Positions 784 to 64,000 of a stretch of 64,000 bases of DNA are shown in pieces (the stretch's first letter is position 1; each line of letters opens with the position of its first letter). The stretch is from positions 1,207,386 to 1,271,385 of the forward strand of contig CAJINV010000016.1 of the NCBI GenBank assembly GCA_905178155.1, in the 5' to 3' direction. Source of the stretch: Amoebophrya sp. A120 (lineage: Eukaryota; Protista; Dinoflagellata). Under the pieces are notes generated by a model that had not been told where the DNA came from, made no database searches, and was given only the letters and a program-made list of their open reading frames with translations. The position numbers and the translations under genes are program-made.

Positions 784-3700
784 ATGAGCATGAGCCCCAT
801 CAATGTTCTGGGACCTAGTGGGTCCGCCGAGTTGCTGGCTGCAGGTGGTTCTGGGCGCGGCCGGGGAGCGGCGGCTACTACGGCGGGAGAAGTGCAGCTG
901 GAGATCGATGGTAGTGATAATATCAAATGTAAAAGTGTCTGGGTCTGGAAGAATCCGAACTTGTGATGCTGCATTTGGATTCCAAAAAAATCTGTATTGC
1001 ATGAGTACCAAAGGGAATGCAATTTTTGCTGCGCTGAGAAGGCATTTGTCATGCGGAATAGGCATCAAGAAGCCCTCAAAAAATCTGTATTGCTAGGGTA
1101 TGCATCACAGACATCATGGCTCATGCAAAACGTGCATGACAAGTGTCAGAATCTTCCAGACCCAGACATTTTTGCAGTTGATAGATAACTATGCGTCGCA
1201 AAATGATGAAGACGAGCAAGAAGAAGTCGAGCGGTTATGAAATGCAAAAGCATCGTACTAGTATGAATCGCATTACAAATTTGCTCAGCATGAAAAATTT
1301 AGTTTGTCATGCTGTTTTACCTTGGGATGGAGATTTGTGATGCATGGCTGCGATTATAATGCACGAGTGCGATACTTTTGCACAGAATAGCGGTTTCAGT
1401 GCAGCAAGTTTGTGAAAATCCTTGGGCTATGGATTGCAAATATGTCTGGGTCTGGATCTGGAAGAAGACAAACTTGTGATGCGCATTTTAGAACACCGAA
1501 AAATCTCTCATGCATAGGTAGCAAAAGCTGCCCACTTTCTGTCACCAAAATGTGGGATTTATCATGCGGATTCGGCATTGCGGAAGCTTCTCGAAACCTG
1601 CGATGCTAGAGCTTCCATGCCAGACCTTCTGCGTCATGCAAAGACAGCATGTCGCTTCCAGACCCAGACACTTTTACACTTGATATGGGCCGGGCATCAT
1701 GGTTTGCCTCGCGGACACCGACGGCCCTTGTCTGGTCACGGCTGGAGAGAGCGGATCGCTGTATGGGTATTCCCTTGTGTCCTGCCAAATTTTGTTAATC
1801 CCCATCCTCTTCGCCGCACAGGAGCTCACGGTGCGACTCTCGCTTTTGACCAACAAGGGGCTCACGGAGCTGATTCGCATCCACTTCGGGGTGTTCTGGG
1901 CCCGGCTCGCGTGCGCCGTGCTCGTGATTACCTATGGTTTGCAAAAGCATTGTAGTTGTACTAGTATAAATTGCATTACCAAGCATTACAAATTAAATTT
2001 GTAATGGTGAAGATTTATCTGCAGAAGTAATGCATAAACGCAATTACTACGAGTACGATACTTTTGCGCAGGATATTACCTGCATCGCCGCCATCATCTC
2101 CGAGCTCGCCTGCATCGCCCATACGGATTGTAAAAGTGTCTGGGTCTGGAAGAGTGGAACTTGTATTTGTAATGCTGTCTGCGGATTCTAAAAATATCTG
2201 TGTTGCATGAGCAGCAAGAGGAGTCAGCTCTTGGCACGCGGAGAGGGCATTTCTCATGCGTAATTAGCATCAAGAAGCTCTCAATCTGTGATGCTAGCAC
2301 CATCATCACAGACCTCACGGGTCATGCAAAATGTGCATGACAAGCCCCGACTCTTCCAGACCCAGACACTTTTGCAGTTGATAGCCCAAGTTGGGGAACT
2401 ATTTGGGGTTCCCATGTGGATCTCCAGTCTAATAGTGGTTTTCCTCCTCGTCCTCATCGTGGCGACCGGTACCTTTCGCCGGTTGGAGTTGATTGGCGTG
2501 GCCATGGGCAGCACGCAGGTGTTGTTTTTTCTCGTCATGTTTCTCGTGCGGCCAGACTGGGAGGAAGTTGCGCATGGGCTGGTCGAGACGCATTTCGACG
2601 ACGGAAAGTGGCTGAAACTCCTCGCAGCCAACATCGGCGCGGTTATCATGCCCTGGATGCTCTTCTACCAGCAGTCGGCTTGCTGCGAGCGGAAGATGAC
2701 GGTGCGCGAGATGATATCAAATGCAAAAGTGTCTGGGTCTGGAAGATTCTAAACTTGTGATGCTGTCTTTGGATTCTAAAAAAAATTGTATTGCATGACC
2801 ATCAAGAGGACTCCAGATTCTCCTACGCGGAGAGGGCATTTCTCATGCGGTGGAGGTATCACAAAGCCCTCTGAAAATCTGTGATGCTATGGCATGCATC
2901 ACAGACATCATGGCTCATGGAAAATATGCATGACAAATCTAGAAACCTTCCAGACGCAGACATTTTTGCATTTGATAGATGACCTACGCCCGGCTGGACA
3001 CCGTGGTCGGCGCCAGCATCGCGCAGGGCGTCATGATTGCCATGGTGATTGCCATGGGCGTATGCATTGCAAATATGTCATCTGGGTCTGGAAGGATGCA
3101 AGGTTTGTCATTGTCATGCTTGTCTAGCACGACTCTACGCTCTGTATTGCGTGCCCGCAAAGAACTTGTTCTCTCTCCTGTCATGCAAAAACGAAGTTTC
3201 TCATGCGGATTACGCAACTCAGCCCCAACGAAAAAACTTGTCATGCTTGGCTGTGCATTACAGTGTGCGCATTCTTCCCTGACATGCATCACAAGTTTCC
3301 AGACCCAGACATAGTTGCATTCGATAGGGCGCGACGCTGTTCAAGCAGAAACCGCAGGAACTGAAGGACGTCCCGCAAATGGTGGACGCGTTGAAGCCGT
3401 CGATGGGCTCCACAGCCGCAAAATTACTGGTCGCCTTCGGTGCCACCGGGGCAAGTTTAGTAGCCGCCCTGGTCGTGGCGATCACGCCGGCGTGGAGCAT
3501 TTGCGAGTTGCTGGGCCACGAGCGGTCACACGACAAACCCTACAGCGAGGCCAAGAATTTCTACCACGCCTTTGCGGCCGTCTTGGTCGCCGCGTTTGTG
3601 ACCACCGTGTGCCCCGAGGTCGGGGACCGCGCCTGGATCATGATCCAGGTCGAGATTTTGAACGCATTGCTAATGCCCGTAGTCGTCGGCTTCATCTTCT

Positions 3701-3822
3701 TCCTGGCCGCGAAGCGGGGGGTCTTGCCGGAATCATACCGGCTCAAAGGGTGGTATAGGATTTTGCTGGGGATCGTGTTTGGTATTTGCAGCATTCTGTG
3801 CGTCTACGCTGCATTTCTGTGA
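784..3822 (+). CDS. NRAMP/MntH-family divalent metal transporter; 8 exons, all 7 introns are TIR introners
   Basis: Removing each element plus one 5-bp DR gives one continuous frame: MSMSPINVLG...KILGPGIMVCLADTDGPCLVTAGESGSLYGYSL...AQELTVRL...LAANIGAVIMPWMLFYQQS...ARLDTVVG...VYAAFL*. The GPG..D.D.G, QE...RL and GA.IMPW motifs are typical of NRAMP. Confidence 0.92.
921..1183. mobile_element. Introner family A (263 bp)
   Basis: TIR TATCAAATGTAAAAGTGTCTGGGTCTGGAAG ... CTTCCAGACCCAGACATTTTTGCAGTTGATA; DR GATAA; removal restores GSDNYASQ. Confidence 0.95.
1236..1389. mobile_element. Introner family B (154 bp)
   Basis: TATGAAATGCAAAAGCATCGTACT ... AGTGCGATACTTTTGCACAGAATA; DR GCGGT; restores EVERFQC. 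Confidence 0.95.
1428..1685. mobile_element. Introner family A (258 bp)
   Basis: Family A TIRs; DR TGGGC; restores the conserved ILGPGIM. Confidence 0.95.
1933..2075. mobile_element. Introner family B (143 bp)
   Basis: Family B TIRs; DR TTACC; restores LVITCIAA; no GT-AG possible at the junction. Confidence 0.93.
2122..2383. mobile_element. Introner family A (262 bp; starts TAC)
   Basis: Family A TIRs; DR GCCCA; restores CIAQVGEL. Confidence 0.95.
2715..2977. mobile_element. Introner family A (263 bp)
   Basis: DR GATGA; restores REMTYARLD; closely similar to the reverse complement of 59032-59306. Confidence 0.95.
3061..3326. mobile_element. Introner family A (266 bp)
   Basis: DR GGGCG; restores AMGATLFK. 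Confidence 0.95.
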
Positions 3823-6880: not shown

Positions 6881-7654
6881 GAATAATATGTCTGGTCAGG
6901 CGGGAGCACCCCGGGCGGATTTTTTTTCTAAAATATGGCTAATTTCCCCGGTATTTCAAAAATTCCGGCCGCCCTTTGTGGGTGGCCCCGTCCGTCCCCG
7001 TCCGGAGCCCGTCGGGTGAGGCCGGTCGGCCGGTCGTGTGAGTGTTGCGTCATTATCTGTCCGTGGTTAGCCTGCGCGCAGGCCAGAAGCCGCGGAAGCC
7101 AGGCGGCCTCCGCGGTTTCTAGGCTTTTAAAATTTAAAAATTTGGGACGTTTTCCGGGGTAAAGCGGGCCGCGCAATTTGGTGGGCTCGCGTTGGTGTCT
7201 GGCGTGGTTGGTTTGCCGGCCATTTGTTGTTTCCTCTGGGTTAAGTCGTTGGGGTTGTCTTTGCCTTGGATCCGCCGATCCATCCGACATTGCGCATGAT
7301 TCTGCGCGTTACCATTTCAGGTCGTGACGTCGTGTTGGTCTGTGTCTTTTTTGGGGAGAGGGAGAGGCTGTACATCAGGGACATGATGTTCGACATATGT
7401 CGAGCACCATCTCCCGACGTCGCCTGCAGTCAGAGATTTCAGGGCGCGAAATCTCTGACAGCCAAGTTCCGGAAGATCGGAAAGACCTGTTTTCGACCTT
7501 CTAAAACTGGTCAATCATGCTTCCGAAATGCCGGCCGCGGTCCTTCTAAAATCCGAAAACTCGGACTTTCCACGGGATTTTGCGCTACCGGGCATTTTAG
7601 AAGATTTTTAGAAGCCGGGCAGGTTCCCGGATTTTTCGTCTTCGGACGGAAAAT

Positions 7655-11405: not shown

Positions 11406-11572
11406 TTAAAGCTGTAAATCTTCGATTTCCAAGATATATGGAATATTTGTTTTTTCCACGACAAAAACATCAAGAATTTTCTATTACATAAATTTCGAAT
11501 CATTGGAATCTTTATGATCCATCGAAGTCTGAATCTCAGGAAAAAGTTCAAATTGTGATGGAAAAAAGAGAA

Positions 11573-15082: not shown

Positions 15083-17310
15083 TTAGGTCTTCGACTATCA
15101 AATGCAAAAGTGTCTGGGTCTGGAAGGATGTAACTTGTCGTGATGCGCATTTCAGAACACACAAAAATCTCTGATGCATAGGCAGCAAAAGCTGCTCACT
15201 TTCTGTCACCAAAGTGGGGGATTTGTCATGGGGATTCGGCATTGCGGAAGCTTCTCGAAACCTGTGATGCTAGAGCTTCCATGCCAGACCTTCTGTGTCA
15301 TGCAGAAACAGCATGACTCTTCCAGACCCAGACATTTTTACATTTGATATCGACACGATCGCTCCTGACCCAAACGTGAAGTTGAACGGTTCGTCCTCCT
15401 CTTCACTCGTGTCATCCGGTTCGGGCGGCTTTGGCTGTAGTAAATTCCCCGTTGTCCCTCCTCCCGCTACTTCCCTACTTCTCCTCCCCACTTTATTCGC
15501 CCGGGCGGAGCTCTTATCCAAGAGAAAGAGTGCGTTAGTGTAGGTTTTTTAGGAAAACAGCATCACAAGTTTGTCTGCTATGAGAGAAAAAACTTGTCAT
15601 GCGCAGAGAGAACGGGAAAACACGTAGGAAGCGAGCCAACCATGCATGTGGAGCATGACAAGGGTATACTGTTTTGCATTTTCTGCATCACAGACTTACA
15701 CTTACACCGTTTTTTTCTTGCATAGCTGTTCCGCGCGGAGCCCTGTGACCGCGCCGTGTGATAACTCCTCGTCGTGGAGGGCGTGGGTGGGGCGGGTATC
15801 GCAAGAAAAAAGTGTTACAGTTTTCACACATTGTGTTGCAGGCCAAGCAAGACAGACAAGCTCTGCCATGCCGGATATGCATAGGAGCCTCGTTTTTTTC
15901 CGTAGGATTTCTGCATTACAAGTTTTCTCTCTCATGGAGAGAAATTTGTGTTGCTGAATTGACTACAACTGTGTGACTGTATACACTTTTTATTTCGTGG
16001 GATAGCGAGAAGGGAGCTGCCAGTGGTGGAGATGGATGCTGATTTTGTCAAAGAAGAAGAACTAGAGGCACCGCCGGTGCTGCTAGAAGATCCGCCGCCG
16101 CCAGAGACGAGATGGAGGGGTAATTGCAGTTTTGGTGGTATCACGGAATTCGGTTTTGAACTCGCTGATGGTGTGTCGCTATCCAGTGGAAAATAAGTAT
16201 CGACGCGCTGGTACGTATTGTAATCTAAACCTGGATGCCTACAGGAGATGTCGAATCTGCATGACAAATTCCCTTGTTCTATTATTTGCAAAAATTTGTC
16301 GTGCGATTTCTACGTAGCACGAACAGGATACTTTTGCAATGGATAGCCGCCTTCGCTGCTGTTTGCATCTGCCTGGAGCTGGTCCGTTTCTGCACGTTCA
16401 AGGGGCTCGAGGAGACAACGGTACAACACATGATACCTGTTGTAGTTGTTTTGCAGAATCTAATATTTCTTTGTCACGCACACGCAGTCCTAACGTTTGA
16501 AACTCGTTTTGCAATGCGGAAGTTGCATTTGCAAGAATATCCTTGTGCATCGAGACCACAAAAAGAGCAAATCTTCATCAGTTTCATTATGTACCTCGTG
16601 CTAATGTTGTGCTCCCACTCGGTCACCGGTGATTCCCAGGTGCTGACCTTCGTGATTTCGTTGTAGTAGTACTCATGGCCGCCGTCCTCACTCTGGTACG
16701 GCCCCGAAAACCCGGCTATTGCTTCCAATGCTCGCTGGTGGACTCCTTGTAAGTGGACGTCGATAATGCGAGAGATTTCGTCTTTCGGAACGCCCGGGCC
16801 GGGGACCGAACGAACTTTCTTCACCATCTGGCAGGTTTTGTATCGATTATCACCATCTTCATCTTGTTTTGCATGATCATTGATCACCATCTTGTTTTGC
16901 ATGATTTGCACGTCAACTTTGACTTCTACAAATGGTTTTGAGAACAGCATGGCAATCAAAAATTTCAACATCTTAATCTCTATCGGAACAAATTGTACCT
17001 GTATCAGCTCCCGGTACGTCCTGTCCGTTGGGTGTGCCCAGCTGGACTGCTCCGTTGCGTAGTTGTAGAAGTATATTCTGCCTTCCGGGTCGGAAAATTC
17101 TGCCCAGTTGGGCGGCAGTGGTGCGATGTAGGCCTCCTGCATGATGCGGAGCAACGTGCCCTGGGTAAAGTCATCGTCTTGTTGGAGTGTTTCCTCGTCA
17201 CAGCCGAGGTACTGGACGAATTGAGCGAAATCTGGGTCGGACAAATCCGGGAGGGGTGCGCCCTGATCTTGGTTCTCGTTCTCATCCTCGTCGCTATCTT
17301 CGCTGGACAT
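15083..17310 (-). CDS. Tandem WW-domain protein with a CEP164-like N-terminal module
   Basis: APLPPNWAEFSDPEGRIYFYNYATEQSSWAHP and YYYNEITKVSTWESP; GT-AG introns 16828-16998 and 16437-16594 plus introners; 3' exon structure approximate. Confidence 0.75.
15096..15349. mobile_element. Introner family A (254 bp)
   Basis: DR TCGAC; same + orientation as 1428-1685 although the host gene is on -. Confidence 0.92.
15540..15985. mobile_element. Larger inverted-repeat element, probably intronic, in the WW gene; ends uncertain
   Basis: IR CAGCATCACAAGTTTGTCTGCTATGAGAGAAAAAACTTGTCATGC versus reverse-complement CAGCAACACAAATTTCTCTCCATGAGAGAGAAAACTTGTAATGC; no clean DR found. Confidence 0.5.
16180..16345. 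mobile_element. Degenerate introner family B (166 bp)
   Basis: TATCCAGTGGAAAAT ... TTTTGCAATGGATA; DR GTCGC/GCCGC. Confidence 0.75.
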
Positions 17311-17938: not shown

Positions 17939-20900
17939 TCATATCTTTCGATTTTTTATTTGCAACTGAAAGGCGAGCGTTTGTTGCCCAGCGGCCTGTG
18001 GTGCTGTCGGCATGTTTAAACTGATTTCCTGAAAACCGAGTTTCAAAATCTCTTCCCGCATGGACCTGCACTTTTGAAAGAACATTTCTACGTCGTTTGG
18101 AAACCCGCAGTCAGTAACATACTCTAGAATCAAGAGGATCTTTTTCACTTTTGGTTGCAACGGGGAAGACACATCCTCACTTTCTTGCGCGTAATCCACG
18201 AGAGAAGAGAGAAACGTCGTGGAAGATGGCGAGGAGTCTAGTGGTTGGCTCACTACTAAGTCGGAAAACCTGAAAAAGTCGAGCCGTAGAGTCAGCGTTT
18301 CGATTGCGGCAAGTGTTAACTGCGGGAATATTGTTGGCACCAAGCTCGAGAAGAAGTGGGCTGCGGCCGTGATTGTAGTTGGTGTGTCTGATTGGTGTTG
18401 TTCTATGCAAGGTCGGTCTATCGCGGTGGACTCCTCTTCAACTCTGCAGAAAGCGAATGGCAAAATGACAGCTTCTCGATTTTTCTCCTCCGTAGTACTC
18501 AAAGCTGCTCCGGCCACTACAACTCCCAGCTCCCCGTAGTTATCCGCCTTCCTCCCGCTGCTGTCGGCGATAGCCTTCGCGTACCGGTGGAGAGAGGGTT
18601 CGAGGATGAGCTCCTTTACCTCGGAGCAGGTGGCGCGATAGGGTTGTAAGAGAGCGGTTGTACTATCAACATCCACATGACTACTTTTCTGCGCAGCTGT
18701 CAACGTGTGTCTCTCCGTCCCGAACCGGAGCTCGAGACAAGGGTTTTTCGAAACGGTGGCCGTTTCAGTTTCTGCAACTTCTACCGTTGCTCCTCGTGGC
18801 GACGTGATTTGCAAGTCAATTTTCAAGTATCCATCGTCGCTGTCGTCTTCTTTGTTTTGTAGTAGTGTCTCGTCCACCGCTCCAGCACCAGGAGGCATTT
18901 TTGCGGTCGTTGAGGGAGCTGCCTCCGAATCTGGTGTCACGGTCAACGCAGTGTCTGTGTCGCTCCCCGCTGTTCTTTGAAACCTCAGATTGATCTCGTC
19001 CACCTGCACGTCGCTCAGCTGCTTGTACCCAAATTCCCCGCACCAAAACTCGCAATCTTTCGTCTTATCCGCGAGTTCGAACCCTTTCGCCTCCATCTTC
19101 TTCACCGTCTCCCCACACGTCGCCCCGTTTTCGTACATGGCTTGGCGGTTTTCGCACAGCACTTCCAGCTCGATCTCTTTAACCTTCCTCCGTAGCGTTT
19201 CACCACTCGCAGACTCGATTATTTTCAAATCCAGCCCCTGCGCGTCGATTTTGATCAGTTTGACTTCGTCGAATTTCCGGAACCAGTCGGACAGCACGGT
19301 TTCTAAGGTCACACAGGGCACCTGGCGGACTTCTTTCAAACCGGAGGCAACGCGCTCACGGAGTTTCTGCATGTCGTAGTTGGTGTGGCGGACTTTGTAG
19401 ACCGGATTCCCGTCTATATCGTACTCCACATCGTAGCTTTTGTTGTGGTCCTGCTCTTTGTCCACGTGGTCCGCTTTTGGTTCCACTTTATTTCTTTCAG
19501 CTGATGCTGTACTACCTCCAGCTGGCGGTAGAACACTACTCGCCCCGTCCAACTCCATCACGTGGAAGTTCAAATACCCAGGAGCAGTTGTACTACTACT
19601 ATCACACGGCCCCACGGCGAAGGGTAGCGCAACGCCGCGTTTGTGCATGACGCCCGCGTTTTTTTCGTTCGGCGCCTCCCGGAATCTGGAAAGCAAGTAG
19701 CTCCACTTGTCTAACAACGGTTCGAAACTGGCGATGAAAAGCGTTTCGTCCGCTGCCTCCACGAACTTCTTGTCTTCGTCCATCAATATCCTGTGCAAAA
19801 GTATCGCACTCGTACTAAATGCAGATATGCATGACAAATCTAACCCTCTTCTACCTGAAATTGCATGAGAGATTGCATTTTTGTTCTTGGGGAAATTTGT
19901 AATGCAATTCATACTAGTACGATACTTTTACTTTTGCAGTGCATAATCAACAGATTGCGACTATTCGACCCGATTTCCAGCATCAGTTGTTTCTTTTTCG
20001 TTTTTATGCATTGCAAAAGTGTCTGGGTCTGGAAGGTTGGAACTTGTGATGCTAGCTCTCCATAACTAGGAAATCTGTAGTACTGCATAGCCAACAAAAG
20101 TCGCAGCCTCTTTTATACACGCAAAAACGCAGTTTCTCATGCGAATTTCCTATGAGAAAGCGCTCTGAAAAGTTGTCATGCTGTGTTGCATTCGAAACGG
20201 TTTCCATCATCCACATTTTGGCATCACAAGTTTCCAGACCCAGACATAATTTTTGCAATCCATAGTTTTTGGTAGCACCGCTTTCTCCGCAACCGACTCG
20301 GATCTCCCATTCACAATTATCACAGGAAAAAGTGTTAACGTTAATGGGATTTGTGATGCAGTAACGCATCAGAAAAGGTACCCAAATTTGTATTGCGTAG
20401 CATGCATGGAAGGCAAAATTTGTAATGCATGACTGCCATTTGTGAAAACCGTTAACGCTAATACTTTTTTGTTTGATAACAATCTGTTCCGCCTGCTCGT
20501 ACATGTAGTCCACGGACTCCCTCGGTGCGGTATCCTGTGCAAAAGTATCGCACTCGTAGTAATTGCACTTGCAGTCATGCATTACAAATCTCGTTCCCAA
20601 CGCAAATCAGCATGACAAATTCCATTAGTCATGCTGAGCGAATTTGTATTGCAATTACTACTAGTACGATACTTTTGCAGTTCATATGGAGAGAAGGATA
20701 TCAAATCGTACCCCCCGTGGATCTTGTTCTTCACCGGGAGAAAGCGCAACGTCGGCGGCAAAGCTCTCGTGTCTATCGTGTCCATTTTCGACTGCGCTTG
20801 CAGCTCCTTCCGCGTTTCCGCATCCCAGTACGGGTTGTCATGGGTAACGACGGACGCTGCTTGACCTTTCAGACTGTCGGGAAGTTATGCACTGCAAAAG

Positions 20901-21669
20901 TATCGCACTCGTAGTAATTGCAGTCATGCATTACAAACCCAACACAACTTTCTACCCGAAATAGCATGACAAATTGCATTTTTGAACTTGAGAAAATTTG
21001 TAATGCATTTATACGAGTACGATACTTTTGCAATGCATAGAAGTTCGTGGTAGGCGAAACCGGGCATGACGCGGGTAAAGTTCCGGCGGTTTACGAAGGA
21101 ATTGATGTAGTGGAAGTTGAGAACGGGGAAGTCTTTCACCAGGAGGGTCGTTTTCGTAGTTTGTCTTTCTGCTGCGTTTTCTATTTCTGCTGCGGTGTCC
21201 TCTTTTGCAGTTGTCGTGGTCCCCGTGTCTTTTGTCGACGAAAAGAAGATGTTTTTCGTGCCCGGGTATCCTGCGCAAAAGTATCGCACTCGTAGTAATT
21301 GCATTTATGCATGACAAAACTCTTTCTTAAGCTGTATCCGCATGACGAATCATGACAAATTCCATTTGTCATGCTGAGCCAATTTGTAATGCAATAGCAA
21401 CACTACGATTTCGATACTTTTGCAATTCATACCGGGAGCGGTTTCCAATCGAAGTGTGCTGTCGGGCGGGTCGTTGCGGAGGAGCCCGCGGCTAGTAATT
21501 CGGGAACGAGAATAAAGAATTGTAGCAAGAAAGACGAGGACATCTTCGCGCCGATCAACGGCCGAGAAACCACAGCGGAGGCCGACATAAAGGACGCGGC
21601 GCAACGAACGAACATCTTGGCCGGCTTAATTTCGTTCTTGCAGTTATAGTAGGTTCGCCCGGCGGCCAT
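17939..21669 (-). CDS. FkbM-like SAM-dependent methyltransferase-domain protein; 6 introner introns
   Basis: Reconstructed LMLEIGSNSRN...IASFEPL...VALPFAVG...VPCVTLETVL...VKLIKIDAQGLDLKIIES, matching the FkbM pattern; alternative start near 21543 gives a signal-peptide-like N-terminus. Confidence 0.78.
19787..19945. mobile_element. Introner family B (159 bp)
   Basis: DR ATCAA; restores RNLLMDED. Confidence 0.93.
20005..20264. mobile_element. Introner family A (260 bp)
   Basis: DR GTTTT; restores VLPKTKKK. Confidence 0.92.
20318..20478. mobile_element. Introner family C (161 bp)
   Basis: TATCACAGGAAAAAGTGTTAACGTT TIR; DR ACAAT; second copy at 62259. Confidence 0.9.
20531..20686. mobile_element. 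Introner family B (156 bp), diverged DR
   Basis: DR TGCGG/TGGAG; removing element+5 nt still restores SFSPPRES. Confidence 0.88.
20886..21039. mobile_element. Introner family B (154 bp)
   Basis: DR GAAGT; restores YHELPDSL. Confidence 0.93.
21267..21431. mobile_element. Introner family B (165 bp)
   Basis: DR CCGGG; restores KPLPGTKN. Confidence 0.93.
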
Positions 21670-22563: not shown

Positions 22564-25500
22564 CTACTCGATCGCGAACGGCCTGCTGCTTAGTTCCATC
22601 GTTAATTCCTCATCTTCCGTGCTCTATCCTGTGCAGAAGTATCGCACTCGTACTAATTGCATTTATGGATTACAAATCTAGTTCCTAAGGCATATCCGCA
22701 TTACAAATTGCATTTGTAATCATGCTGATCCAATTTGTATTGCAATTCATACTAGTACGTTGCTTTTGCAATTCATATGCTCACGTAAACGACGAATTCC
22801 CCGCATTTTCCCGGATCGTAGGTGCAGGGGAGGATGGTGTAAAACCCTATCAAAATGAAAAATCCCCCCGCCCCATACTCAAACTAGAGATTTGTGATCG
22901 TGCAGATTTGTGGCCACAAATCAGCTTTGTCAAGCTAGAAGGGAAAAGATGCGGACTGTAGTGCTGTTTGGCGTGGGAACGCCTTGCATCTTCAGCATGA
23001 CAGGGGGCAGCTGGAAGTCGGAAACAGCGTGACAAATTGCCTGCAAACGAGGCCAAAGCTGCGTCTCTTGGCCTTCTAGCATTGCAAGTCGATTTGTGTA
23101 CTCAAATACAGCATCACAAATTTCGTTTTCGATATGGGGAGGGGGGATTTTTCCTTTCGATAAACCCCGCGTCTAGGGGTACGTTCAGCGCGATCTCGTG
23201 GGAGGCGGAGAAGGTGGTTTCGTAGACCAAAATGTCCCGGCTGATCACGACCTGCTTGTGCTGATCGTATACTAGTTTCAGTAAATAAAACCCGAGCATG
23301 CAACCCACCGGGTCCTTCACGATTTTCTGCCGCCAGGATTTCTCGCACCTGGCGAGCGTGATCTTCGCGTTCTTCGTCCTCTGTGGGACTTTCAGGAACA
23401 GCTGGGGATTCCTGCCCCACGTCGCGGTCTTCTGGGGCTCATACGGTGGGTAGTAGATGTGGCAACCGCCGGCGGAATCGGGGGTCCATTCGGAATATCA
23501 AATGTAAAAATGTCTGGGTCTGGAAGAATGTAACTTGTGACGCTGTTTTTGGACTCCAAAAAAATTTGTATTGCATGACCAGCAAGACGGGTACAGTTTG
23601 TGCTGCACGAACAGGGCATTTCTCATGCGGGTGGTGCATCAGGAAGGGTTCTAAAAACCCGTGATGCTAGGTCATGCATTACAGGCGTCATGTGTCATGA
23701 GAAACATGCATGACAAACTTGGCAATCTTCCAGACCCAGACATTTTTGCAATCCATACGGAACCTGTTGTATTGGTGGTATTCATTTACATTTTTGCAAG
23801 GGAGGTATCCTCGGTTCTGCTTCATGCTGGGGGTGGGAACGCCTACGCACACGCAGGGCAAGACAAAAAGAACAATAAAACCACGACTCTCGGTCTCGGC
23901 GGCATGATCTTCATCTTCATCTGTATCAAGATTAGCAGAAAACAAAAGACATCTCTTTATACAGATTAACGGGTGCTGTGAGTCAGGTAGCCTGGCGTGC
24001 TTGTAGATTTCCTTATCCGAATACACCGTCAGCATGCTGTTTCCGATGATCCCCTCCTCACTCAAGCTGGGCACAACCAACAGTGGCCCCTGGACTGGTG
24101 TCGTTGCGCACAAAACCGCACTTCTGTCCTCGACATAGGGGCATTCCTTTACCCAGTCGTTCGGGAGGATTTGCAGTTTTCCTGATAGGAATTTCGTGTA
24201 TCCGATTTTCTTGTCATGCGACAACATGAAGAAAGTGTGAAGGTGCGGAATTTATTATAATGAGCATTTTGCATGACAAAGACAAAGAAAATAAATCATA
24301 TGCATATCGTCGTATACTTTTCAAGAACTTGTTGTCCAATTCGTTCATTGCCTTCGAATTTGCCGACTCGTCCGGTAACCTGCCCTTCTTTACCCGCTGC
24401 AATGTGGTATCCGGCTGACTCGCGGGGACTAATCTGCACACCGTCGCGCCGATTTCCCCCACAGGTTTTTTCCTCCCGACTATTCTCTCTATCACCACCT
24501 TCACCGTCGCTGGTTTCTTGTACCCAAGCACCAACTGCGGATTTTTCCCCCACGCTGGGTTATCCACCACCACCGTCTGCATCGGCCCCCCGGCTGCCGC
24601 TGCCGCGGCACTACTACTTGTCGCGCCCCCACCGCCGCCGGCCGCGGCTGAGGTTTCCCCGGCCTTCCCAGCCGCTGCGGTCGGACTAGTTCCGCCCTCC
24701 TCCACCGGGACTTCTATCTTTTTCGACCTTTTCCCCCCGGAATTTTGGTTCGTGAATTCTAACGGGAATTGGTACTTGCACAATTTTGCGCACTTCTCTA
24801 TCGACACCTCACTGTCGGCGAAAATCCGCAAGCAGAACAACTTCCCGGTTTCTGGCTTCGTGGTTGCTTGGAACGGAACCAGCATGAACTGGGAGCAGGA
24901 GAGGGACTGCGGGTCGATCGTCGCTTCGAAGTTCACCTGAGCGTTGTTGATGTAGCTCGTCCCGACCGCGCAGAGTTCCTCATCGGGAAATTCCCAGAGG
25001 ATTGGCTGTCCTTTCGCCTTGTACATGACTAAGGAGATCGGCTCCTGCTCGGCGATCGCGTTTCCGCCCGTGGCCATCAACGTTGTGTCCTGGAGGAGAG
25101 AAACGGAGATGGTCGTTGGCTTGTTGATCGTGAGCTTGTACTGCGGATTCGAGCAGAATTCGGGATCCGCGGGGCCAGAACCCCTGGCGTCTTCGAAGTT
25201 ACCGAGGACCGCGTATTGATCTGTGTGAAGTTGTCGTTGAGGGAAATTGAAAATTGACGTAGAATTACCAAAAATGCACAGCAGCCAGTGCTCGAAAACG
25301 ATGACCATAACGAATATGTGCTGCTATTTCTTCGTGAATGGATCCAGGATCCTCAGGTCAGACTCAGGATCGTTCGAGTTCCACCTGCATGTGAGAAAGA
25401 GTAGAAAGTGCAAAAATAAAAAATCGAAAACAAAGTACGGTATTCCTGCTTGAACAGCCGGCAGATAGAAATCATCCCCCCGTCGAACAAATTGACTAAC

Positions 25501-43749: not shown

Positions 43750-46700
43750 TCACATCAAGTCGTAATTTCCCCCGCCCCCATTATTCAGCACGGCGTGCGC
43801 AGCCATTGCGCCTACCGCAAGCAGCCCGCGAGTCATGCGAGAGAGGGTTGGCGACTGCTCTGGCGGGAGGTTCTTGGGGTTGTGGTGCTGTTGCATACTG
43901 TCTTCATCTGCCGCAAGATCCACTTCCATATCGTCCTCTTCGTCCGCATATCAAATGCAAAAGTGTCTGGGTCTGGAAGAGTGCCCGACTTGTCATGCAG
44001 ATTTTCCATGACCCATGAGGTCTGGAATGCAGGACCTAGCATGGCAGATTCTGTGCGCTCTCTCTCATGCTTATCCTGCATGAGAAACTCCCTCCAGAAT
44101 TGGTCAAAACTGGACGACTTTTGGTAATCATGCAATAGAGATTTTTCCATGCTTCAGATTTAGCATGACAAGTTGCATTCTTTCCAGACCCAGACATTTT
44201 TACATTTGATACCGCAAGCTCGTGTCCAACAAGCGTTGCTTTCGCTTCTTCAACAGCTCTATGCATTGCAAATATGTCATCTGGCTCAGGAGACTTGTGA
44301 TGCAAATCTACGAATTGTCGGCGCACAGCAATATGGGGCCCAGCATGACAAATTTTTGCGCTGCTGTGTGTTTCGTTTTTCGCATGACAAGCTGCGTTTT
44401 TGCATGACAGGCAAGAGCAGGCCCTTTTCCTGCTCATGCATCACAGATTTAAGAGTCATGCCAGACACGCATGACAAACTTGCATTCATCATCTTCCAGA
44501 ACCAGACATATTTGCAGTTGATAAGCTGCAATGTTGTCAGCGAAGGCTCTCTTTGCCGCCGTGCTGTGCAACCAGTCGTGCACATTCGGATGGAGGATGG
44601 ACGCAGCGAATTCTGCTTCAGAAGCTGGGGGAGTGTGCTGTTGTTGAAGTTCAGAAGATTTTTGCTGGTGTCCTGAAGGAAGTAGACCAGAAAAAGGATG
44701 CAGTGCAGCTGCTTCAGCGGCGGGGCCCTGGGCCGGCGAGCCTGGTGCCGATGTTGAAGGAGATGCAGGATTAGTGATCGCTTCAGTTAGTTTTAGTGAA
44801 GATGTCGGCCCCGTAGTAGAAGTTCTGCTTGCACTAGCTTTCGACGTCGGAGCTGCCAAAACTACCTCTCTTGGACTCCCGAAGTACGCACCTGGTTTTG
44901 GAAGTTGCGTTTTCCGTGGCAGGTGATTTCTGATTTTCTCGTCCTGCGGAACGGCTTCTGCGTCTGGTGCAGCTGCGTGATCCTGATCGCGAGGCGCACG
45001 ATCTTGCTGTGAGCCATTTTCATCGACGTCCGCTGATGATTTCTCGGCGCCGCGTGCTTGTGCGCCAATCCGTGCCAACGCAGAATTTCTGCTGTCAATG
45101 GACGACAGGGAAGATGACAAGGAACTAGCGAGACCACTGCTGTCGCCAAGATGATTATCAGCTGGCGCTTTATTCGACGCGACTCCCGACAGCGACAGCG
45201 TCGACGCGAGATTGCTCAGCGGAAGTGTAGTTCTCGAAAGCAGGCCACGAAGATCCGGATTCGCAAGAATGCGTTTGGAAACGGCCAGATCCAGCGGGGA
45301 GAGCTTCTTGATATCGTTCTTGAAAGTGGTTTCTTCACCAGATTCCTTTCTCATCTCTCCAACCACCTGCTCGTCGTCAAAGACTCCCAAAGAGGATGCT
45401 GTGCTTGCCAAATTGTGCATTTTGAACGGGTTGATGTTCTTATTTTTCTGGTATTCTTGTTGAACAGGAATAATTCGGAAGCCATCCAATCTCGGTTGAT
45501 TTGGCGAAAAAGCCGGAACCGTATGGATTGCAAATGTGTCTGGGTCTGGAAGATTGGGATTGCCAGGTTTGTTGCCTATTCCGCATGAGAAATGCCCTCT
45601 CCACGTAGGACAAACCGGACTCCTGTTGCTGCTCATGCAATACAGATTTTTGTGGAATCCAAAGACAGCATTACAAGTTCCAACCTTCCAGACGCAGACG
45701 ACGTTTTTGCATTTGATAGACCGGTACCGGACCCAAAATTCTCGTCGCTGTTCGAGAAGGCGCGGCAGAGCTTGCGCTATCTGTAGAGCCAACACTTGTG
45801 GTCTCGCCGGGCGGGGTGTTGCTGCGCTGTCTCAGTTGAAGCTTGCTCGGGCGGCGAACCGCGGCGTACTTTTGGTCAGGTGTGTTGCTGGCCGCGTCGA
45901 ACAGGGGTTGTGCAGCTTGTACTACAACCTGCGGAAACGGTGTCGTCGTTGTGCTTTTTTTCGCGCCCCCGCCGGTTTTCGTGTTTCCTAACGCCTTATC
46001 TAGCTGAGCTGCAAGCTTCGCGAACTCCGTTTGTTGTTGAGCAGGGGAAGCAGCAGCTTCTGCTTTCGACGATACCGCTGGTGCTGCGGAGGGAATGGAA
46101 ATTGGTGTCGCATTTTCAAGCCTGGTTGAGAAATCACTGGTAGCAGAATTGTCTTCTGCTGGGACGATTGTCGTGCTAGGCTGGTTAATTGCGCGATCGT
46201 CCACATCGACATCCTCTTCATAAGGCAAAAAAGGAGCACGATGCAGCTGCATCTCATCCGACTTCGCAGCCCACCGGGGAGGGACAAAAGTGGACTCAAA
46301 TTCTTCCAGACTGTCGTAATCTCCATGGAACAGCTATCCACAGAAAAAAACCCACCCACATCCATTTTTTGCATGACAAGCGCAGGACTTTATGCATGTT
46401 TTGCATGACAAATTGGATGTGGATGGGTTTTTTTCTTTGGATAACAGCGTTCCGGGACATTCGTATCGAACTCCTGAGTCCTGGTAAGGTACTTTGTGCA
46501 AGTAGCACCCAGGTGGAGCGGGCGTATTGTGCAAAAGCTCCCCTGTCGTTGCGTAGCTCGGGCCCAACGCAAGATGTGTTCCGGTTAAGGCCAACGGGAC
46601 GGCGGCGGCAGTCAAGCAGGCGAGTTTTCCAGCCTTGGTGAGGATGGAGCTGTGATTGGGCGGACAGAGTAACTCCTCGTCATCAGATATGGAGTTCTCA

Positions 46701-59700: not shown

Positions 59701-62700
59701 GAGAATCACGCAAGACAAAACCACACACAATCGTGCAGCAAATCGCATCACAAAGAACAACAACAAAAACCAAAACAACAAAAGAACAAATTATACTCCA
59801 GTTCATTTGGAATCTGGTTTTCGGAATGACCATGGAGTTGCACACGATATCCCGACTGCCCAAAGTGCTCTGATTCAGGCTGAAAAACGCGTTGGCCAAT
59901 CCGCCGCACGCCATCTTCAAGTGTTTGATGATAAACCCCGCGTTCGACCCTCCCTCACTGTTCCCCGATTTCCTTGTCCGTTCTAAAAACCCCGCTTTTT
60001 CCACCGCACGACACCAGGTGGATAAAGTGTAGTTCGGCTTCAGTTCCTTCACTAATTGCGACAACGGGTAAAGATTCCCCCTTGCGGATTGGATCGGTTT
60101 TATCACGTTCAAATGCCTTGATTTGTTCACATTCGCCGATTTGTTTGCGTTCGCGGCGGATAAATCCTGTAAGGAGGATAATTCCGTCGAGATCTGTATC
60201 CACACAAAAAAACCCATGCCCATCCGCATGCATTTTTTGCATGACAAACACATGACTTGATACGTTTTTTGCATGACAAATTGGATGTGGATGGGTTTTT
60301 TCTGTGGATAATCGGCAATCCGGTTTTCGCCAAGTCGTGAAATTGAAACAGCTTTTTCGAATCGAAATCCATGGTACTGTGGAACTGATTCTTCCGGTAT
60401 ACCGCGTTCGCCAGCCGCTTGATGTAGAGTTTTTGGAAGTCGGAGAGGTAAGAAACGGCGTTTTCGCAGTCACCGTCCGGGACAAATTCGTAGTCGCCGT
60501 TGTTGAGGAGTTCGTTTTCCGCCTCTTCTTCTTCCAGAATGTGTTTAGGGACGGTCTTTCCGGATTTTTCACCGTACCGGTTCAGCATACCTGACAGGAA
60601 AATGGTGTGTAAGAACTTGCTCGACCTGAGACTGGTTGTTGCTGCACGAAAAAGATGGGAACGACAACGAATCCATGGGAAAATTGCATGACAAAACGCG
60701 GCGGCAACTACAGGAATTAATATTCTACCAGCCCTTTCCAGCTTGTGCACCGCTCTGACGTACGACGTCGCCTGGTCATCCGTCATTCCCGGCGCGGGAA
60801 CCAGCATCGCTTTCAGATCTGTTGGCACGAAGCCCGCGACCGCTGCGTCTTGCGGTAACGCGTCGAGAATTTCCAACGTCTTTTTGTACCGCTTGATTTG
60901 GGGCATCTTCTCCCATTTTGGTTTCTCTTCCTTCTTCTCTTCCGCCGCACCGAGCGCTTGCTCGAGTAATTTCTCCTGCTCTTCCGAGGCGGTGGCGAAA
61001 CTGCCGGACTTCTTCCTGTTGATCACCTTCATCTGTTTTTCCAGGTAGAGCCGCGCGTCGTCCAATTCGTTCTGTAATTCGTCGTCCGCTAAGTCGATGA
61101 GCTCGGCTTTCGGATCGTACTTCATCTTGTGCATCGCGATTCTCGTTTTCAAGCTGTCTTTCAAGATTTTGTTCTCCTCCTCTACTTCCTTGCTGTAGCA
61201 GTAACAGCTGTTCTCCGAATCCATGAACATCGATTCCGTCTGAAACCGCCCGTCCGCCGACCGCGGCCGCTGCTTTTTCGGCTTCTTCGGCGGCGGCAGG
61301 CCGAGCTGATCGGCAAGAATTCTTTCCTGCTTGATTTCCTCGTGAATTTTCGCGACATAGGGTGGTAGAAATTGCCGGTGCACGTCGTGGGGGAGAGAAT
61401 TGCGACCTGCTTCTTCCTCCGCTTCGGCTTTCTTCAGTGCAGCTGCCTCTACTTCTGCCGCGAGTTGCTTCGCTTTCTCTTGCGCCGCGAGACTGCTTGC
61501 CGGCGCGGTCTTCTGCTTCGTGATTGGCGAATTCGCTGCTTCGAGATCGTCTACGGGTTTTCCATCTTTTCCAACAGCAACAGCGGCATCCGCACCTCCA
61601 TCCTCTTTCTCTTCCTCCCCCCGCGGGCTCGGACACCTCCCCGCACACCCCTGCAGCGGGATATTCGCCGCCTCGTCCCCAAAACACCGGTCCGCGGTTG
61701 GTAAGTCTTCCCCAAACAACCCGAACTGCACGATCGCGGCGCGGTTTTCCCTGGTCACTTCCGGCCAGTCCAGGATTTCCCTATCGATTTCTTCGGAGAA
61801 AAATTCAATTTGCTTCATATCCGGAAGAACAGCAGAAGCACTATCCTCCACCGCACCTGGACCAGTTACTTGTGGCTTGTGACTCGGGTAAATCAGCTTC
61901 TTCCAGTGCTCTTTCGCATCTTCCGGTACGACGTCGTTGACATCCCGTTCTGCTTTCAGATGCTTGTTCCACACGGCAGATATTTCGTTCAACTTTTCCG
62001 TGTAGCTTAAAACCGTGGGGTCGGTTGTGTGGACTTTTTCGACGACAGAGTCTAACGAGTCTCTTTCCGGAATCAAATTTTTCAATTGCGGAAACACGTC
62101 CCAGCTCGGTTTGGGAATGAAACGTTTGTTCTTGATCGGCTTCTCTGGTAATCCGGTGTCTTTTTGAGTTTGGTTCAATTTTCCATAGTAGTCGGAGGAC
62201 TGCGAAGCTCCGGAATCCGAGTCGTAGATCCCGTGTTTCATGAAAAGCTGCTGCGCTGTATCACAAGAAAAAGTGTTAACGTTAGCGGTTTTCACAGAAT
62301 GCAGTCACGCATGACAGTTTTTGCCCAATATGCTTGCTATGCATGACAAATTTGGGCACCTTTTGTGTTGCATTACTGCATCACAAATTCGAATTCCGTT
62401 AACCTTAACACTTTTCCCTGTGATACGCTGATGTTTGGTCATCTCCTTCTCCCCGGAGCGCCTTCTCCTCGGCTTCCAACCGATGTCTTTCCTCCTCGAC
62501 GTGATCCGCGTGTTTCTGCAACTCGGATTCGTAGAAGTGGGAGTTCTTCTCCGCTTCGAGGCGTTTCTGTTCCGCTGCTTTTGCTTCCTCTGCCGCTAGC
62601 TTCGCTTCTTCCTCTCGTTTTGCGTCGGACATGAGGGAGGAGAGGAGTTTTTCCTGCTCTTGTCGGTACTCCTCGTCGGTATCGAGAGGTTTCTCGTCTT

Positions 62701-64000
62701 CTGCCGCATGATCTTCCTCCGCTTCAATAGCTTCGCCCTGAGCTGCTGCTGCAGCAGCATCCGCAGGACCACCAGCTTCTGCTCCGTTCGCGTCGCCATC
62801 GCCTGCAGCAGGATTAGCAGCTTCCGCGTCTGCCATCTGCTCCGCAGTGGCTGCAGGGTCGTGATCTTCGCCGAGATTCTCCTGCGAAAAGAATGACGAA
62901 ATTGCTGACTTTTTCTCTTTTTTGTTCATTTCGGAGATCGTCTTCGCTTTCTCCACCACTGCTTCTGGATCGGATTCTGCGTTTTCCAATTGCTGAATTT
63001 CCCAAGCAGATTTTTCCACCTCCATTTCTTCGGCGTCTAACTTCACTTCTATGACCGCGTGATCGAGTAACTGCTTTGTCTCTTCCTCCGCATCTTGCTC
63101 TTTCGGCTCCTCGTCCTGCTGCGCAGCACCTTCGTCACCGTCGTCCGGAGAGGACTTAGCTTTCTTTGCAACAGGTTTAACATTAGCATCCCCGCCAACT
63201 ACTGCAGCCAGTTCTTCCGTCAACCTCGCCTCCAACTTGGAAACTTGCATCTTCCCTAATTCCTCGATTTTCATTTTCGATTTTTTTTCCTGCAGTCGCA
63301 GTTCCAAAATCGCGCTCTTGTGCTTCTCGATCCTTTCCTTCACAAGTCTTTTCCTCTCCTTTCTCCTCTCCTCAGAAGATTCCTTCGCTTCTTTCAACGT
63401 GGTTAATTGCCCCTGCATATCAAATGCAAAAGCGTCTGGGCGGTCTGGAAGATTGCCAGGTTTGTCATGCACATTTTGCATGACTCCTGATGTCTGTGAT
63501 GCATGCCCTAGCGTCACAGATTTTGTGAGGGCCTCCTGATGCCTATACCACATGACAAATGCTCTTTCCGTGTAGCAAAACTTGGATTCTCTTTGCTGCT
63601 CATGCAATACAGATTTTTTCAAAATCCAAAATCAGCATTACAAGTTGGATTCTTCCAGACCCAGACATTTTTACATTTGATACTGCACGTCATTCGTCTG
63701 TTCCTCACAGAACTGCTTAAAATCCTCCGCATCTACCCACGCTTCTATCGGGGCGGTCAACGTATCCGCAGCACCGGACTGTTGGAATTGCAGCGCCAAG
63801 CTGGTTATGCACGGTAAATTTCCTCCTGCGCAGGTACAAATGCGGTTTCTGCATGGCAAAACTTGGTTTCGATCCTAGTTTAGCATGACAAGTTTTGCGC
63901 TCCAAATTAGTGAAATTTGTGATGCATCTGGTACATTTACGGGAAATTTGTATTGCATAGTGGTGACGTCAATGGAGGATGGTGCTGTTTTTGATTTGTC
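56723..64000 (-). CDS. Large coiled-coil, Glu/Lys/Ala-rich hypothetical protein; 5' end beyond the window
   Basis: ORFs 62405-63622, 60127-62295, 59687-60274, 59261-59632 and 57652-59121 join in frame across 7 introners and GT-AG introns; no domain recognised. Confidence 0.75.
57211..57367. mobile_element. Introner family I (157 bp)
   Basis: TATCGACAGGAAAATTCCCGC ... GCGGGAAATTTGTATTGCATA; DR CATGC/CATGT. Confidence 0.82.
57439..57656. mobile_element. Introner family H (218 bp)
   Basis: TIR TATGAGAGTGCACAACTCCCCCTCCCCCTC; DR TCTTC; restores SLKTRPM. Confidence 0.88.
59032..59306. mobile_element. Introner family A (275 bp)
   Basis: DR ACTTC; restores DEEVAEL. Confidence 0.94.
60197..60310. 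mobile_element. Introner family F (114 bp)
   Basis: DR ATCTG/ATCGG; restores GLPISTEL. Confidence 0.9.
62259..62425. mobile_element. Introner family C (167 bp)
   Basis: DR CGCTG; restores QTSAQQLF. Confidence 0.92.
63418..63682. mobile_element. Introner family A (265 bp)
   Basis: DR CTGCA; restores NDVQGQL. Confidence 0.93.
63806..63959. mobile_element. Introner family I (154 bp)
   Basis: TATGCACGGTAAATTTCC ... GGGAAATTTGTATTGCATA; DR CTGGT/GTGGT. Confidence 0.82.

What the first reader, a model, noticed from the sequence alone, without database searches (positions are those of the whole stretch)
921..63959. About 43 TAT...ATA TIR elements with 5-bp direct repeats act as precisely removed non-GT-AG introns
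Seen: every mapped element lies inside a coding region, none in intergenic DNA. Removing the element plus one DR copy restores the frame and conserved motifs (NRAMP GPG, calpain GFYTILPCTY, cNMP LYVIQKG, the IQ repeat consensus). Junctions such as TTACC|TATGG...GGATA|TTACC and TGGGC|TATGG...TGATA|TGGGC offer no GT-AG pair. Ordinary GT-AG introns occur in several of the same genes. Known: non-canonical introner elements with inverted and direct repeats have been reported in Amoebophrya genomes, so the phenomenon itself is probably not new, but as far as I know the removal mechanism is unresolved. Inference: a dedicated excision route exists, either hairpin-guided RNA splicing or ciliate-IES-like DNA excision.
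Basis: partly seen in the sequence, partly recalled or inferred. Interest (0 to 1): 0.92.

Follow-up and report, generated by a model that had tools for sequence, protein, structure and literature searches.

The report
Amoebophrya transposon introns without GT-AG
These 44 short hairpin-forming repeats, likely former transposons, sit inside the genes of the marine parasite Amoebophrya and are missing from its spliced transcripts wherever tested although they lack the usual GT-AG splice signals; the phenomenon was published in 2021, and what is added here is a likely fixed cut position that makes the still unknown splicing mechanism testable.

Summary
Observation confirmed; the phenomenon is already published. 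The window is Amoebophrya sp. A120 (100% match to an NCBI A120 protein). I find 44 TAT...ATA elements with 5-bp direct repeats (32 perfect), all in coding sequence. Removing element+5 nt leaves open frames for 44 of 44, and none offers GT-AG, GC-AG or AT-AC at any of six registers. They are the A120 introner elements of Farhat et al. 2021 (PMC7789003), whose motif is TAT+7 nt+AAA. RNA-like contigs skip exactly element+5 at 9 shown joints and at 5 more by length sums; DNA-like contigs keep the elements. So removal is at RNA level; IES-like DNA excision is not supported. Not found in my searches: where the two repeat copies differ, the transcript keeps the upstream copy (4 of 4 RNA joints, plus one database protein). 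At least 4 of 5 repeat bases come from upstream if the cut is fixed. A cut one base before TAT aligns all 44 elements with the host's GTAY donor at +2 to +4. I favour a relaxed, hairpin-guided spliceosome (inferred, about 0.5) over an endonuclease/ligase route (0.35).

The parts
921..1183 (+). element, ~260-nt family A1, DR GATAA, NRAMP gene
   Evidence: no RNA laid
1236..1389 (+). element, ~155-nt family B, DR GCGGT
1428..1685 (+). element, family A2, DR TGGGC; removal restores GPG
1933..2075 (+). element, family B, DR TTACC
2122..2383 (+). element, family A1, DR GCCCA; 5' end is TAC instead of TAT
2715..2977 (+). element, family A1, DR GATGA
3061..3326 (+). element, family A3, DR GGGCG
15096..15349 (-). 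element, family A2, WW-domain gene
   Evidence: RNA joint skips 259 = 254+5
15515..15724 (-). element with unequal DR copies (sense ACAGC/AGAGC)
   Evidence: RNA joint skips 215 = 210+5 and keeps the upstream letter at DR position 2
15797..16004 (-). element with unequal DR copies (CTCGC/CCCGC)
   Evidence: RNA joint skips 213 = 208+5 and keeps the upstream letter at position 2
16180..16345 (-). element with unequal DR copies (GCGGC/GCGAC)
   Evidence: RNA joint skips 171 = 166+5 and keeps the upstream letter at position 4; spanned whole by a DNA-like contig
19787..19945 (-). element, family B
   Evidence: joint not among rows shown
20005..20264 (-). element, family A3
   Evidence: joint not shown
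20318..20478 (-). element, 79% like 62259
   Evidence: joint not shown
20531..20686 (-). element, family B, unequal DR copies (CTCCA/CCGCA)
   Evidence: joint not shown
20886..21039 (-). element, family B
   Evidence: joint not shown
21267..21431 (-). element, family B
   Evidence: joint not shown
22625..22777 (-). element, family B, calpain-like gene
   Evidence: RNA joint skips 158 = 153+5
22848..23162 (-). element, singleton; removal restores GFYTILPCTY
   Evidence: RNA joint skips 320 = 315+5
23496..23757 (-). element, family A1 in reversed orientation
   Evidence: RNA joint of 466 = 262+5+199, together with the neighbouring GT-AG intron
23758..23763 (-). micro-exon of at most 6 nt (one G plus the DR copy) between a GT-AG intron and the element
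23764..23962 (-). GT-AG intron next to the micro-exon
25555..25808 (-). element, family A1 in reversed orientation
   Evidence: RNA joint skips 259 = 254+5
25866..26120 (-). element, family A3, unequal DR copies (GGAAG/GAAAG)
   Evidence: RNA joint skips 260 = 255+5 and keeps the upstream letter at position 2
26755..26910 (-). element, family B
   Evidence: length sum 642 of 642 in RNA contig
27475..27624 (-). element, family B in reversed orientation
   Evidence: length sum 344 of 344 with three other elements and two GT-AG introns
27682..27829 (-). element, family B
   Evidence: same sum
28278..28435 (-). element, family B
   Evidence: same sum
28482..28761 (-). element, singleton
   Evidence: same sum
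31581..31794 (-). old element with strongly diverged DR copies (GTCGA/GATTT), UvrD-like gene
   Evidence: spanned whole by a DNA-like contig; removal of +2 or +5 both keep frame
34215..34391 (-). element with unequal DR copies (GAAAG/GAATG)
   Evidence: database protein P0001 has K, the upstream letter at position 4
37725..37859 (-). element, family B reversed; removal restores LYVIQKG in a kinase/cNMP gene
43949..44211 (-). element, family A1
44260..44523 (-). element, family A3, DR copies differ at position 1
45522..45718 (-). element, DR copies differ at position 5 (synonymous): decisive for the register
   Evidence: no RNA laid
46335..46443 (-). element, 86% like 60197
46688..46923 (-). 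element, singleton
48285..48440 (-). element, family B
51781..51932 (-). element, family B; sense 3' end is ATG instead of ATA
54181..54389 (-). degenerate 45th candidate, TAT...ATA, DR copies GCAGC/GAAAC, GA microsatellite inside
   Evidence: frame open only with +5 among +0,+3,+4,+5,+6; not in the counts of 44
57211..57367 (-). element, DR copies differ at position 1
57439..57656 (-). element, singleton
59032..59306 (-). element, family A1, 91% like 2715
60197..60310 (-). element, DR copies differ at position 2
62259..62425 (-). element, 79% like 20318
63418..63682 (-). element, family A1
63806..63959 (-). element, DR copies differ at position 5 (Thr versus Ser): decisive for the register
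   Evidence: no RNA laid, no protein found

Best explanation
These are Amoebophrya A120 introner elements, likely MITE-type DNA transposon insertions with a 5-bp target duplication, which stay in the DNA and are absent, with exactly one repeat copy, from spliced transcripts, most likely removed by a relaxed spliceosome guided by the terminal hairpin. Step 1 (inferred): a transposase inserts the element and duplicates 5 bp of a near-random target. Step 2 (predicted): the inverted ends pair in the pre-mRNA and bring the two exon ends together. Step 3 (partly shown): the cut is asymmetric with respect to transcription. The mRNA keeps at least 4 of the 5 repeat bases from the upstream copy if the register is fixed, so the intron is [N]TAT...ATA plus 4 or 5 repeat bases. 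Step 4 (inferred): the likely register is one base before TAT, which places U-A-U at intron positions +2 to +4, like the host's GTAY donors. The machinery would read +2 to +4 and a distance from the stem and would ignore the first and last two bases.
For: Identity: 100% match to an NCBI A120 protein; end motif TAT+7+AAA as published. RNA level: 9 joints skip exactly element+5, with record coordinates leaving no extra letters where checked; 5 more fit by length sums. The same contigs skip 5 GT-AG introns. DNA-like run X1 has even depth across intergenic DNA; its 8 listed pieces end about 25 nt inside elements or span them whole. Register: upstream letter kept in 4 of 4 informative RNA joints (positions 2, 2, 2, 4) and in P0001 (position 4). 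Donor match: 16 of 16 GT-AG introns start GTA and 14 of 16 GTAY; at register 4, 44 of 44 elements read N-T-A-Y, at the other five registers 0 or 1 of 44. The one 5'-end variant is TAC, still TAY. Farhat Table S4 lists nine predominant A120 motifs, all with T at +2, and nine A25 motifs starting TT, where the repeat starts TTA. Spliceosome proteins are nearly complete and U1 snRNA was not detected. Hairpin: 40 of 44 have z below -2 against 12 shuffles each. Targets: DR bases close to codon-position expectation.
Against: Register 4 versus 5 is not resolved: no joint with a position-5 mismatch was read (searches found no protein; both read-laying runs were used). The upstream bias is 5 of 5 (two-sided P = 0.06), all in minus-strand genes, from one RNA sample, and P0001 is a gene model, not raw reads. 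All 44 elements share TAT by definition, so the donor match is one observation, not 44. At register 4, position +5 is C or G in the elements but A or T in 16 of 16 GT-AG introns. The 3' end would be a random 4-mer (AG in 5 of 44), which known spliceosomes rarely accept (own knowledge). No common branch-point motif was seen in the last 70 nt. Table S4 motifs depend on the aligner. Both orientations are removed, as a structure-only enzyme would predict. The terminal UAU:AUA pairs form fully in only 27 of 44 predicted folds. Farhat found no transposase in A120. 30 of 44 elements have no RNA test here.
Confidence: 0.5

Rival explanations
1. RNA-level removal by a separate, spliceosome-independent route: a structure-specific endonuclease cuts at the base of the stem on the 5' side and 4-5 nt beyond it on the 3' side, and a ligase joins the exons, as proposed for euglenid and diplonemid nonconventional introns.
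For: No terminal dinucleotide rule. Both orientations are removed. Strong hairpins in 40 of 44. YAG motifs 4-6 nt inside many 3' ends are not used where RNA was read. Position +5 differs from GT-AG donors. A micro-exon of at most 6 nt between a GT-AG intron and an element is handled exactly. Euglenid introns also have the stem closer to the 5' end and leave as circles (PMC11282704); an RNase III/ligase route was proposed for diplonemids (PMC12621601).
Against: The likely register reproduces the host donor at +2 to +4. Family B is biased in orientation, 12 of 14 (P = 0.013), and TATG lies at the 5' end in 16 of 20 asymmetric elements (P = 0.012; the two tests are not independent), so strand sequence matters. 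Two RNA-confirmed elements (23496, 25555) have no terminal pairs in the predicted fold. No such enzyme was looked for or is reported in the papers read.
Confidence: 0.35
2. Programmed DNA excision like ciliate IESs: the element is cut from the DNA before transcription.
For: TIR plus short direct repeat and strict coding location resemble IES anatomy (own knowledge). Contigs drop rare variants, 799 joints were not shown, and the life stage of X1 is unknown.
Against: All 8 listed X1 pieces, depth 39-46, carry exon-element junctions or span elements without gaps; none of the 15 joints shown is an empty site. Retention follows transcription direction in 5 of 5 cases, though all are minus-strand genes. 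A cell with one kind of nucleus has no germline copy to restore the element (own knowledge).
Confidence: 0.03
3. The joints are reverse-transcriptase jumps across a hairpin between short direct repeats, not splicing in the cell.
For: A hairpin flanked by short repeats is the classic setting for such jumps (own knowledge). All RNA data here are assembled cDNA contigs.
Against: Retention breaks the frame or adds stops in 44 of 44 cases, in genes with intact Pfam domains. An enzyme stalling at the stem would copy the downstream repeat first and leave its letters (inference); the 4 informative joints show the upstream letters.
Confidence: 0.04
4. RNA-level removal with a variable cut anywhere inside the direct repeat; the 5 of 5 upstream bias is chance.
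For: P = 0.06 only. Farhat's Fig. 3 legend calls the splice sites variable relative to the hairpin.
Against: Three independent position-2 and two position-4 cases agree; the paper's variability can come from alignment ambiguity inside perfect repeats (inference).
Confidence: 0.08

Closest known systems
Amoebophrya sp. A120 introner elements (Farhat et al. 2021, PMC7789003)
   Same: Same organism, TAT+7 nt+AAA inverted repeat, 5-bp direct repeats (Fig. S19 legend), hairpin, many families, RNA-supported non-GT-AG junctions, coexisting GT-AG introns.
   Different: No difference in kind. The paper leaves the border unknown (Fig. 3 legend); here unequal repeats bracket it to the last one or two positions of the upstream copy.
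Euglenid and diplonemid nonconventional introns (PMC11282704, PMC12621601)
   Same: End pairing, TSD-like repeats at junctions, no GT-AG, likely MITE origin, mechanism open, stem set closer to the 5' cut than to the 3' cut.
   Different: Different lineage and motifs (CAG/CTG at +4..+6 and -8..-6); circular products are reported there and untested here.
Fritillaria borealis non-canonical introns (as reviewed in PMC11282704)
   Same: TIR and TSD elements turned into introns, removed by an adapted U2 spliceosome.
   Different: They keep preferred ends (AG-AC, AG-AT); the A120 elements show none in 44 cases.
Micromonas, Aureococcus, Symbiodinium and Polarella introners (PMC9860276, PMC11282704)
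   Same: TIR/TSD non-autonomous elements that create introns without changing the mRNA.
   Different: Those carry or co-opt GY and AG splice sites; these do not.
Ciliate internal eliminated sequences (recalled, no call)
   Same: Short transposon-derived inserts in coding DNA, removed with one copy of a flanking repeat.
   Different: IESs are cut from DNA of a somatic nucleus; here DNA-like contigs keep the elements.

Membership tests
Amoebophrya A120 introner elements | Genome is Amoebophrya sp. A120 | tested here: met
   100% identity over the 200-aa query; the whole 668-aa protein lies in my gene model
Amoebophrya A120 introner elements | Inverted repeat starting TAT, seven variable bases, then at least three A | tested here: met
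Amoebophrya A120 introner elements | Direct repeat of 3-5 nt at the exon/intron borders | tested here: met
   5 bp, identical in 32 of 44
Amoebophrya A120 introner elements | Non-GT-AG junction supported by RNA | tested here: met
   9 joints and 5 sums, 14 of 44; 0 of 44 canonical
Amoebophrya A120 introner elements | Repeated in families | tested here: met
   families of 14 and 10 at 70% identity, best pair 91%; depth in element bins up to about 100,000 against about 45 outside in X1
MITE / TIR DNA transposon | Short, TIRs, target duplication of constant length and varying sequence | tested here: met
MITE / TIR DNA transposon | Cognate transposase or autonomous element; empty orthologous site | not testable with these tools
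   no whole genome held; no ortholog found; Farhat found no transposase in A120; PMC12130899 reports an A120 TIR family with integrase-like ORFs, link to these elements untested
U2 spliceosomal intron | GT-AG (or GC-AG, AT-AC) ends | tested here: not met
   0 of 44 at six registers
U2 spliceosomal intron | Donor-like bases at +2 to +4 | tested here: inconclusive
   match at register 4 only; register 4 versus 5 unresolved; +5 differs
U2 spliceosomal intron | Branch point and lariat product | not testable with these tools
   no common YTRAY-like motif in the last 70 nt; no raw reads of this strain laid
Ciliate-type IES | Removed from the DNA of the expressing nucleus | tested here: not met
   X1 pieces keep the elements at single-copy depth; rare empty sites cannot be seen in contigs
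Euglenid-type nonconventional intron | Full-length circular excision product, removal after GT-AG introns | not testable with these tools
   needs circular-RNA or nascent-RNA data

The most novel reading that the evidence does not exclude
A120 introners are cut at one fixed register, one base before TAT and four bases after ATA, by a spliceosome without a recognisable U1 that reads only U-A-Y at +2 to +4 and measures the 3' site from an RNA stem, so that any five-base target becomes a perfect intron in either orientation. A25, whose repeat starts TTA, would follow the same +2U/+3A rule with another element.
Probability: 0.35. Interest if true: 0.8.

Novelty: already known. Interest (0 to 1): 0.4.

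Why it matters
The elements themselves are published: 29,850 in A120. How they are spliced is still open in the papers I could read (searches listed no mechanistic follow-up, and most subscription papers are not in the library). Unequal direct repeats turn an ambiguous border into a measurable one with existing RNA-seq. If the donor-like register holds genome-wide, a spliceosome can work without either terminal dinucleotide, which would explain how transposons flood coding sequence at no cost. If it fails, a second mRNA splicing chemistry becomes likely.

Tried and rejected
No whole genome is held, so no genome-wide count, snRNA search or transposase search. Run search: no listed holder is on record as RNA; X3 and X4 are guessed RNA and are one sample. 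I treat them as RNA because their contigs skip GT-AG introns. X9 (raw RNA, same species label): only 26 reads laid, 25 of them partly, so it gives no evidence either way. Six elements at 19787-21431 lie in the laid stretch, but their joints were among rows not shown (9 hidden); the contig length would put its 5' end at 21660, near my predicted start, which is consistent but not proof. Protein searches to read position-1 and position-5 mismatches found nothing: (only proteins up to 2000 aa searched; both genes are about that long or longer). Idea that a G at DR position 1 supplies an ATAG acceptor (register 1): AG in 19 of 44 against about 13 expected G, and excluded by the joints that keep upstream letters at positions 2 and 4. 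Idea that the GCATGACA-like motif is a general intron signal: 14.6 per kb in elements, 1.9 in GT-AG introns, 0.2 elsewhere, so more likely element relics. HPD (J-domain-like, recalled) reading of junction 31581: no Pfam support on the separate halves and +2 or +5 both fit; not used. Insertion phase 13/11/20 is not significant (P = 0.22). Rfam: no match. The automatic gene finder skipped real exons and was replaced by hand-set models. Earlier scan findings: none returned.

Full report
Observation. A strict scan for TAT...ATA with an exact 5-bp direct repeat and at least 15 of 25 matching terminal bases gave 28 elements. A position matrix built from them found about 50 ends on each side, against 2-5 per shuffled window at the same threshold. 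A relaxed pair scan returned 44 rows. I dropped 14748-14960 (score at the cut-off, no internal motif) and added 31581-31794, which gives 44 elements of 109-315 nt between 921 and 63959. A degenerate 45th lies at 54181-54389 and is left out of the counts. The repeat copies are identical in 32 and differ in 12. The elements fall into a ~260-nt group, a ~155-nt family of 14, four pairs and singletons. BLAST of the 44 against the masked window found only hits of 52 nt or less, several inside GT-AG introns.

Coding location and frame. With hand-set models for nine gene stretches, all 44 elements lie in coding sequence and each stretch reads without internal stops after removal of element+5. Changing one element at a time, the frame is open in 0 of 44 when it is retained, 44 of 44 with +5, and 1-2 of 44 with +0, +3, +4 or +6. 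Coding sequence is about 61% of the element-free window (P about 3e-10 for 44 of 44, rough). This could reflect targeted insertion or faster decay of copies that need no splicing; I cannot separate these. Pfam confirms Nramp, calpain, UvrD, kinase, cNMP, papain and WW domains on single exons (10 of 12 exons had a hit). None of the 44 gives GT-AG, GC-AG or AT-AC at any of the six possible registers.

Identity. A helicase exon matched one protein at 100%, named by NCBI as Amoebophrya sp. A120. Farhat et al. 2021 (PMC7789003; I read the abstract, sections 10, 11-12 within part 3 of Results, 16 and 25, search passages and supplement passages; figures are not held) describe A120 introner elements whose inverted repeat starts with TAT, then seven less-conserved bases and at least three A, with 3-5-nt direct repeats, 29,850 copies and RNA-seq support. 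My end matrix is the same. The finding is therefore a sample of a published class.

RNA versus DNA. The run search listed no holder on record as RNA. X3 and X4 are guessed RNA and come from one sample. X3 laid alone on 14600-26400 showed 15 of 24 joints: 8 skip exactly element+5; one skips 466 nt, which equals element 23496 plus 5 plus a 199-nt GT-AG intron; 4 are other GT-AG introns; 2 are short-sided joints between repeats. So 9 of the 15 elements in that stretch have a shown joint; the other 6 belong to a contig of lower depth whose joints were not shown. Record coordinates leave no extra letters in the three gaps checked. Two length sums (642 and 344 nt) match exactly if five more elements are removed with +5, given my GT-AG intron ends; compensating errors cannot be excluded there. 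In total 14 of 44 are RNA-supported and 30 untested. X1, of unrecorded kind but with even depth of 43-53 outside elements, behaves as DNA: its 8 listed pieces run about 25 nt into elements or span 16180 and 31581 whole with no gap. None of the 15 joints shown there is an empty site; 799 were not shown and contigs drop rare variants.

Where the cut falls. Inside a perfect repeat the border cannot be placed, and Farhat's Fig. 3 legend marks it unknown. Unequal copies place it. At 15515, 15797 and 25866 the copies differ at sense position 2, at 16180 at position 4. The reported joint positions and overlaps show that all four transcripts carry the letter of the upstream copy. P0001 has lysine at 34215, again the upstream letter at position 4; this is a gene model built from transcript alignments, so weaker. 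With a fixed cut, the intron starts at TAT or one base before it and ends 5 or 4 bases after ATA. Five of five has two-sided P = 0.06, and all five genes are on the minus strand. Attempts to read a position-5 case failed.

Mechanism. The 16 GT-AG introns I compiled (9 RNA-supported, 7 predicted) all start GTA, 14 GTAY. Starting one base before TAT gives N-T-A-Y in 44 of 44 elements; other registers give 0 or 1. This is a single shared motif, not 44 tests. It is backed by the TAC variant at 2122 and by Table S4, where all nine predominant A120 motifs have T at +2 and all nine A25 motifs start TT (aligner-dependent). Against it, +5 is C or G in elements and A or T in all 16 donors, the 3' end is a random 4-mer, and YAG motifs a few bases inside many 3' ends are passed over. 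Elements fold strongly (z below -2 in 40 of 44, 12 shuffles each), but the outermost three pairs form fully in 27 of 44 and not at all in 11, including two RNA-confirmed elements. The two ends agree at positions 1-3 and 11-13 in 41-44 of 44 and at positions 4-7 in only 16-29 (positions 1-3 and the A run were part of my search), so the ends look read as sequence, by a transposase or by the splicing step. Both orientations are removed, yet family B is 12 of 14 in one orientation (P = 0.013). I put 0.5 on a relaxed hairpin-guided spliceosome, 0.35 on an endonuclease/ligase route, 0.08 on a variable cut, 0.04 on a reverse-transcriptase artefact and 0.03 on DNA excision.

Literature seen. PMC12005148 (passages): the Karlodinium strain and AT5 use GT-AG, and U1 is present there. 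PMC11282704 (section 6 and passages): reviews Amoebophrya, Fritillaria and euglenid introns, with the mechanism open. PMC12130899 (passages): A120 introners assigned to several transposon classes, one TIR family with integrase-like ORFs. PMC9860276 (passages): other introners carry or co-opt GY/AG. PMC12621601 (passages): diplonemid non-canonical introns, RNase III/ligase proposal. PMC12787238 (passages): a U1-70K homologue in A25. Roy et al. 2023 (Curr Biol) was seen only as a citation. Six searches listed no paper on the A120 cut register or chemistry. The library lacks most subscription papers, and Farhat's Figs. 3, 4, S19-S25, which I could not see, may already show part of this.

Verdict. 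Real, correctly described, and already known as a class. The added value is a way to fix the cut position and a first bracket on it. Interest 0.4.

Noticed in passing
window 5500-9550: Gene-free stretch with three related units of about 1.36 kb (two direct, one inverted), each holding a 12-13-bp tandem array with a TTTTAGAAG core, bounded by shared 60-80-bp inverted ends. No introner lies in it. Could be a second MITE-like or satellite-like family.
   Followed up: partly
window 23758-23763: Micro-exon of at most 6 nt between a GT-AG intron and an element; both are removed exactly in the RNA contig. Useful for testing the order of removal.
   Followed up: partly
window 24182-24317, 27938-28189, 60642-60728: GT-AG introns that hold short matches to element interiors and the GCATGACA-like motif; possibly old introners that became, or inserted into, canonical introns.
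   Followed up: partly
window 27410-30295 (minus strand): Calpain-like protein with an N-terminal array of about seven IQ-like repeats; my model shows no obvious catalytic cysteine motif (not tested further). Pfam did not call IQ on the one exon tested.
   Followed up: no
window 31413-35874 (minus strand): UvrD-like helicase whose C-terminus has an HPD motif across the junction of element 31581, recalling a J-domain (recalled); Pfam gave no support on the separate halves.
   Followed up: partly
GT-AG introns across the window: Donors are unusually uniform (GTA in 16 of 16, A/T at +5 in 16 of 16, no +5 G) and acceptors are preceded by A/C-rich rather than pyrimidine-rich sequence, which fits a divergent or missing U1.
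   Followed up: partly
window 12300-64000: All ten modelled gene stretches beyond 12 kb are on the minus strand, matching the unidirectional clusters reported for this genus.
   Followed up: no
window 36710-39519 (minus strand): Protein kinase fused to two cNMP-binding-like domains at its C-terminus.
   Followed up: no
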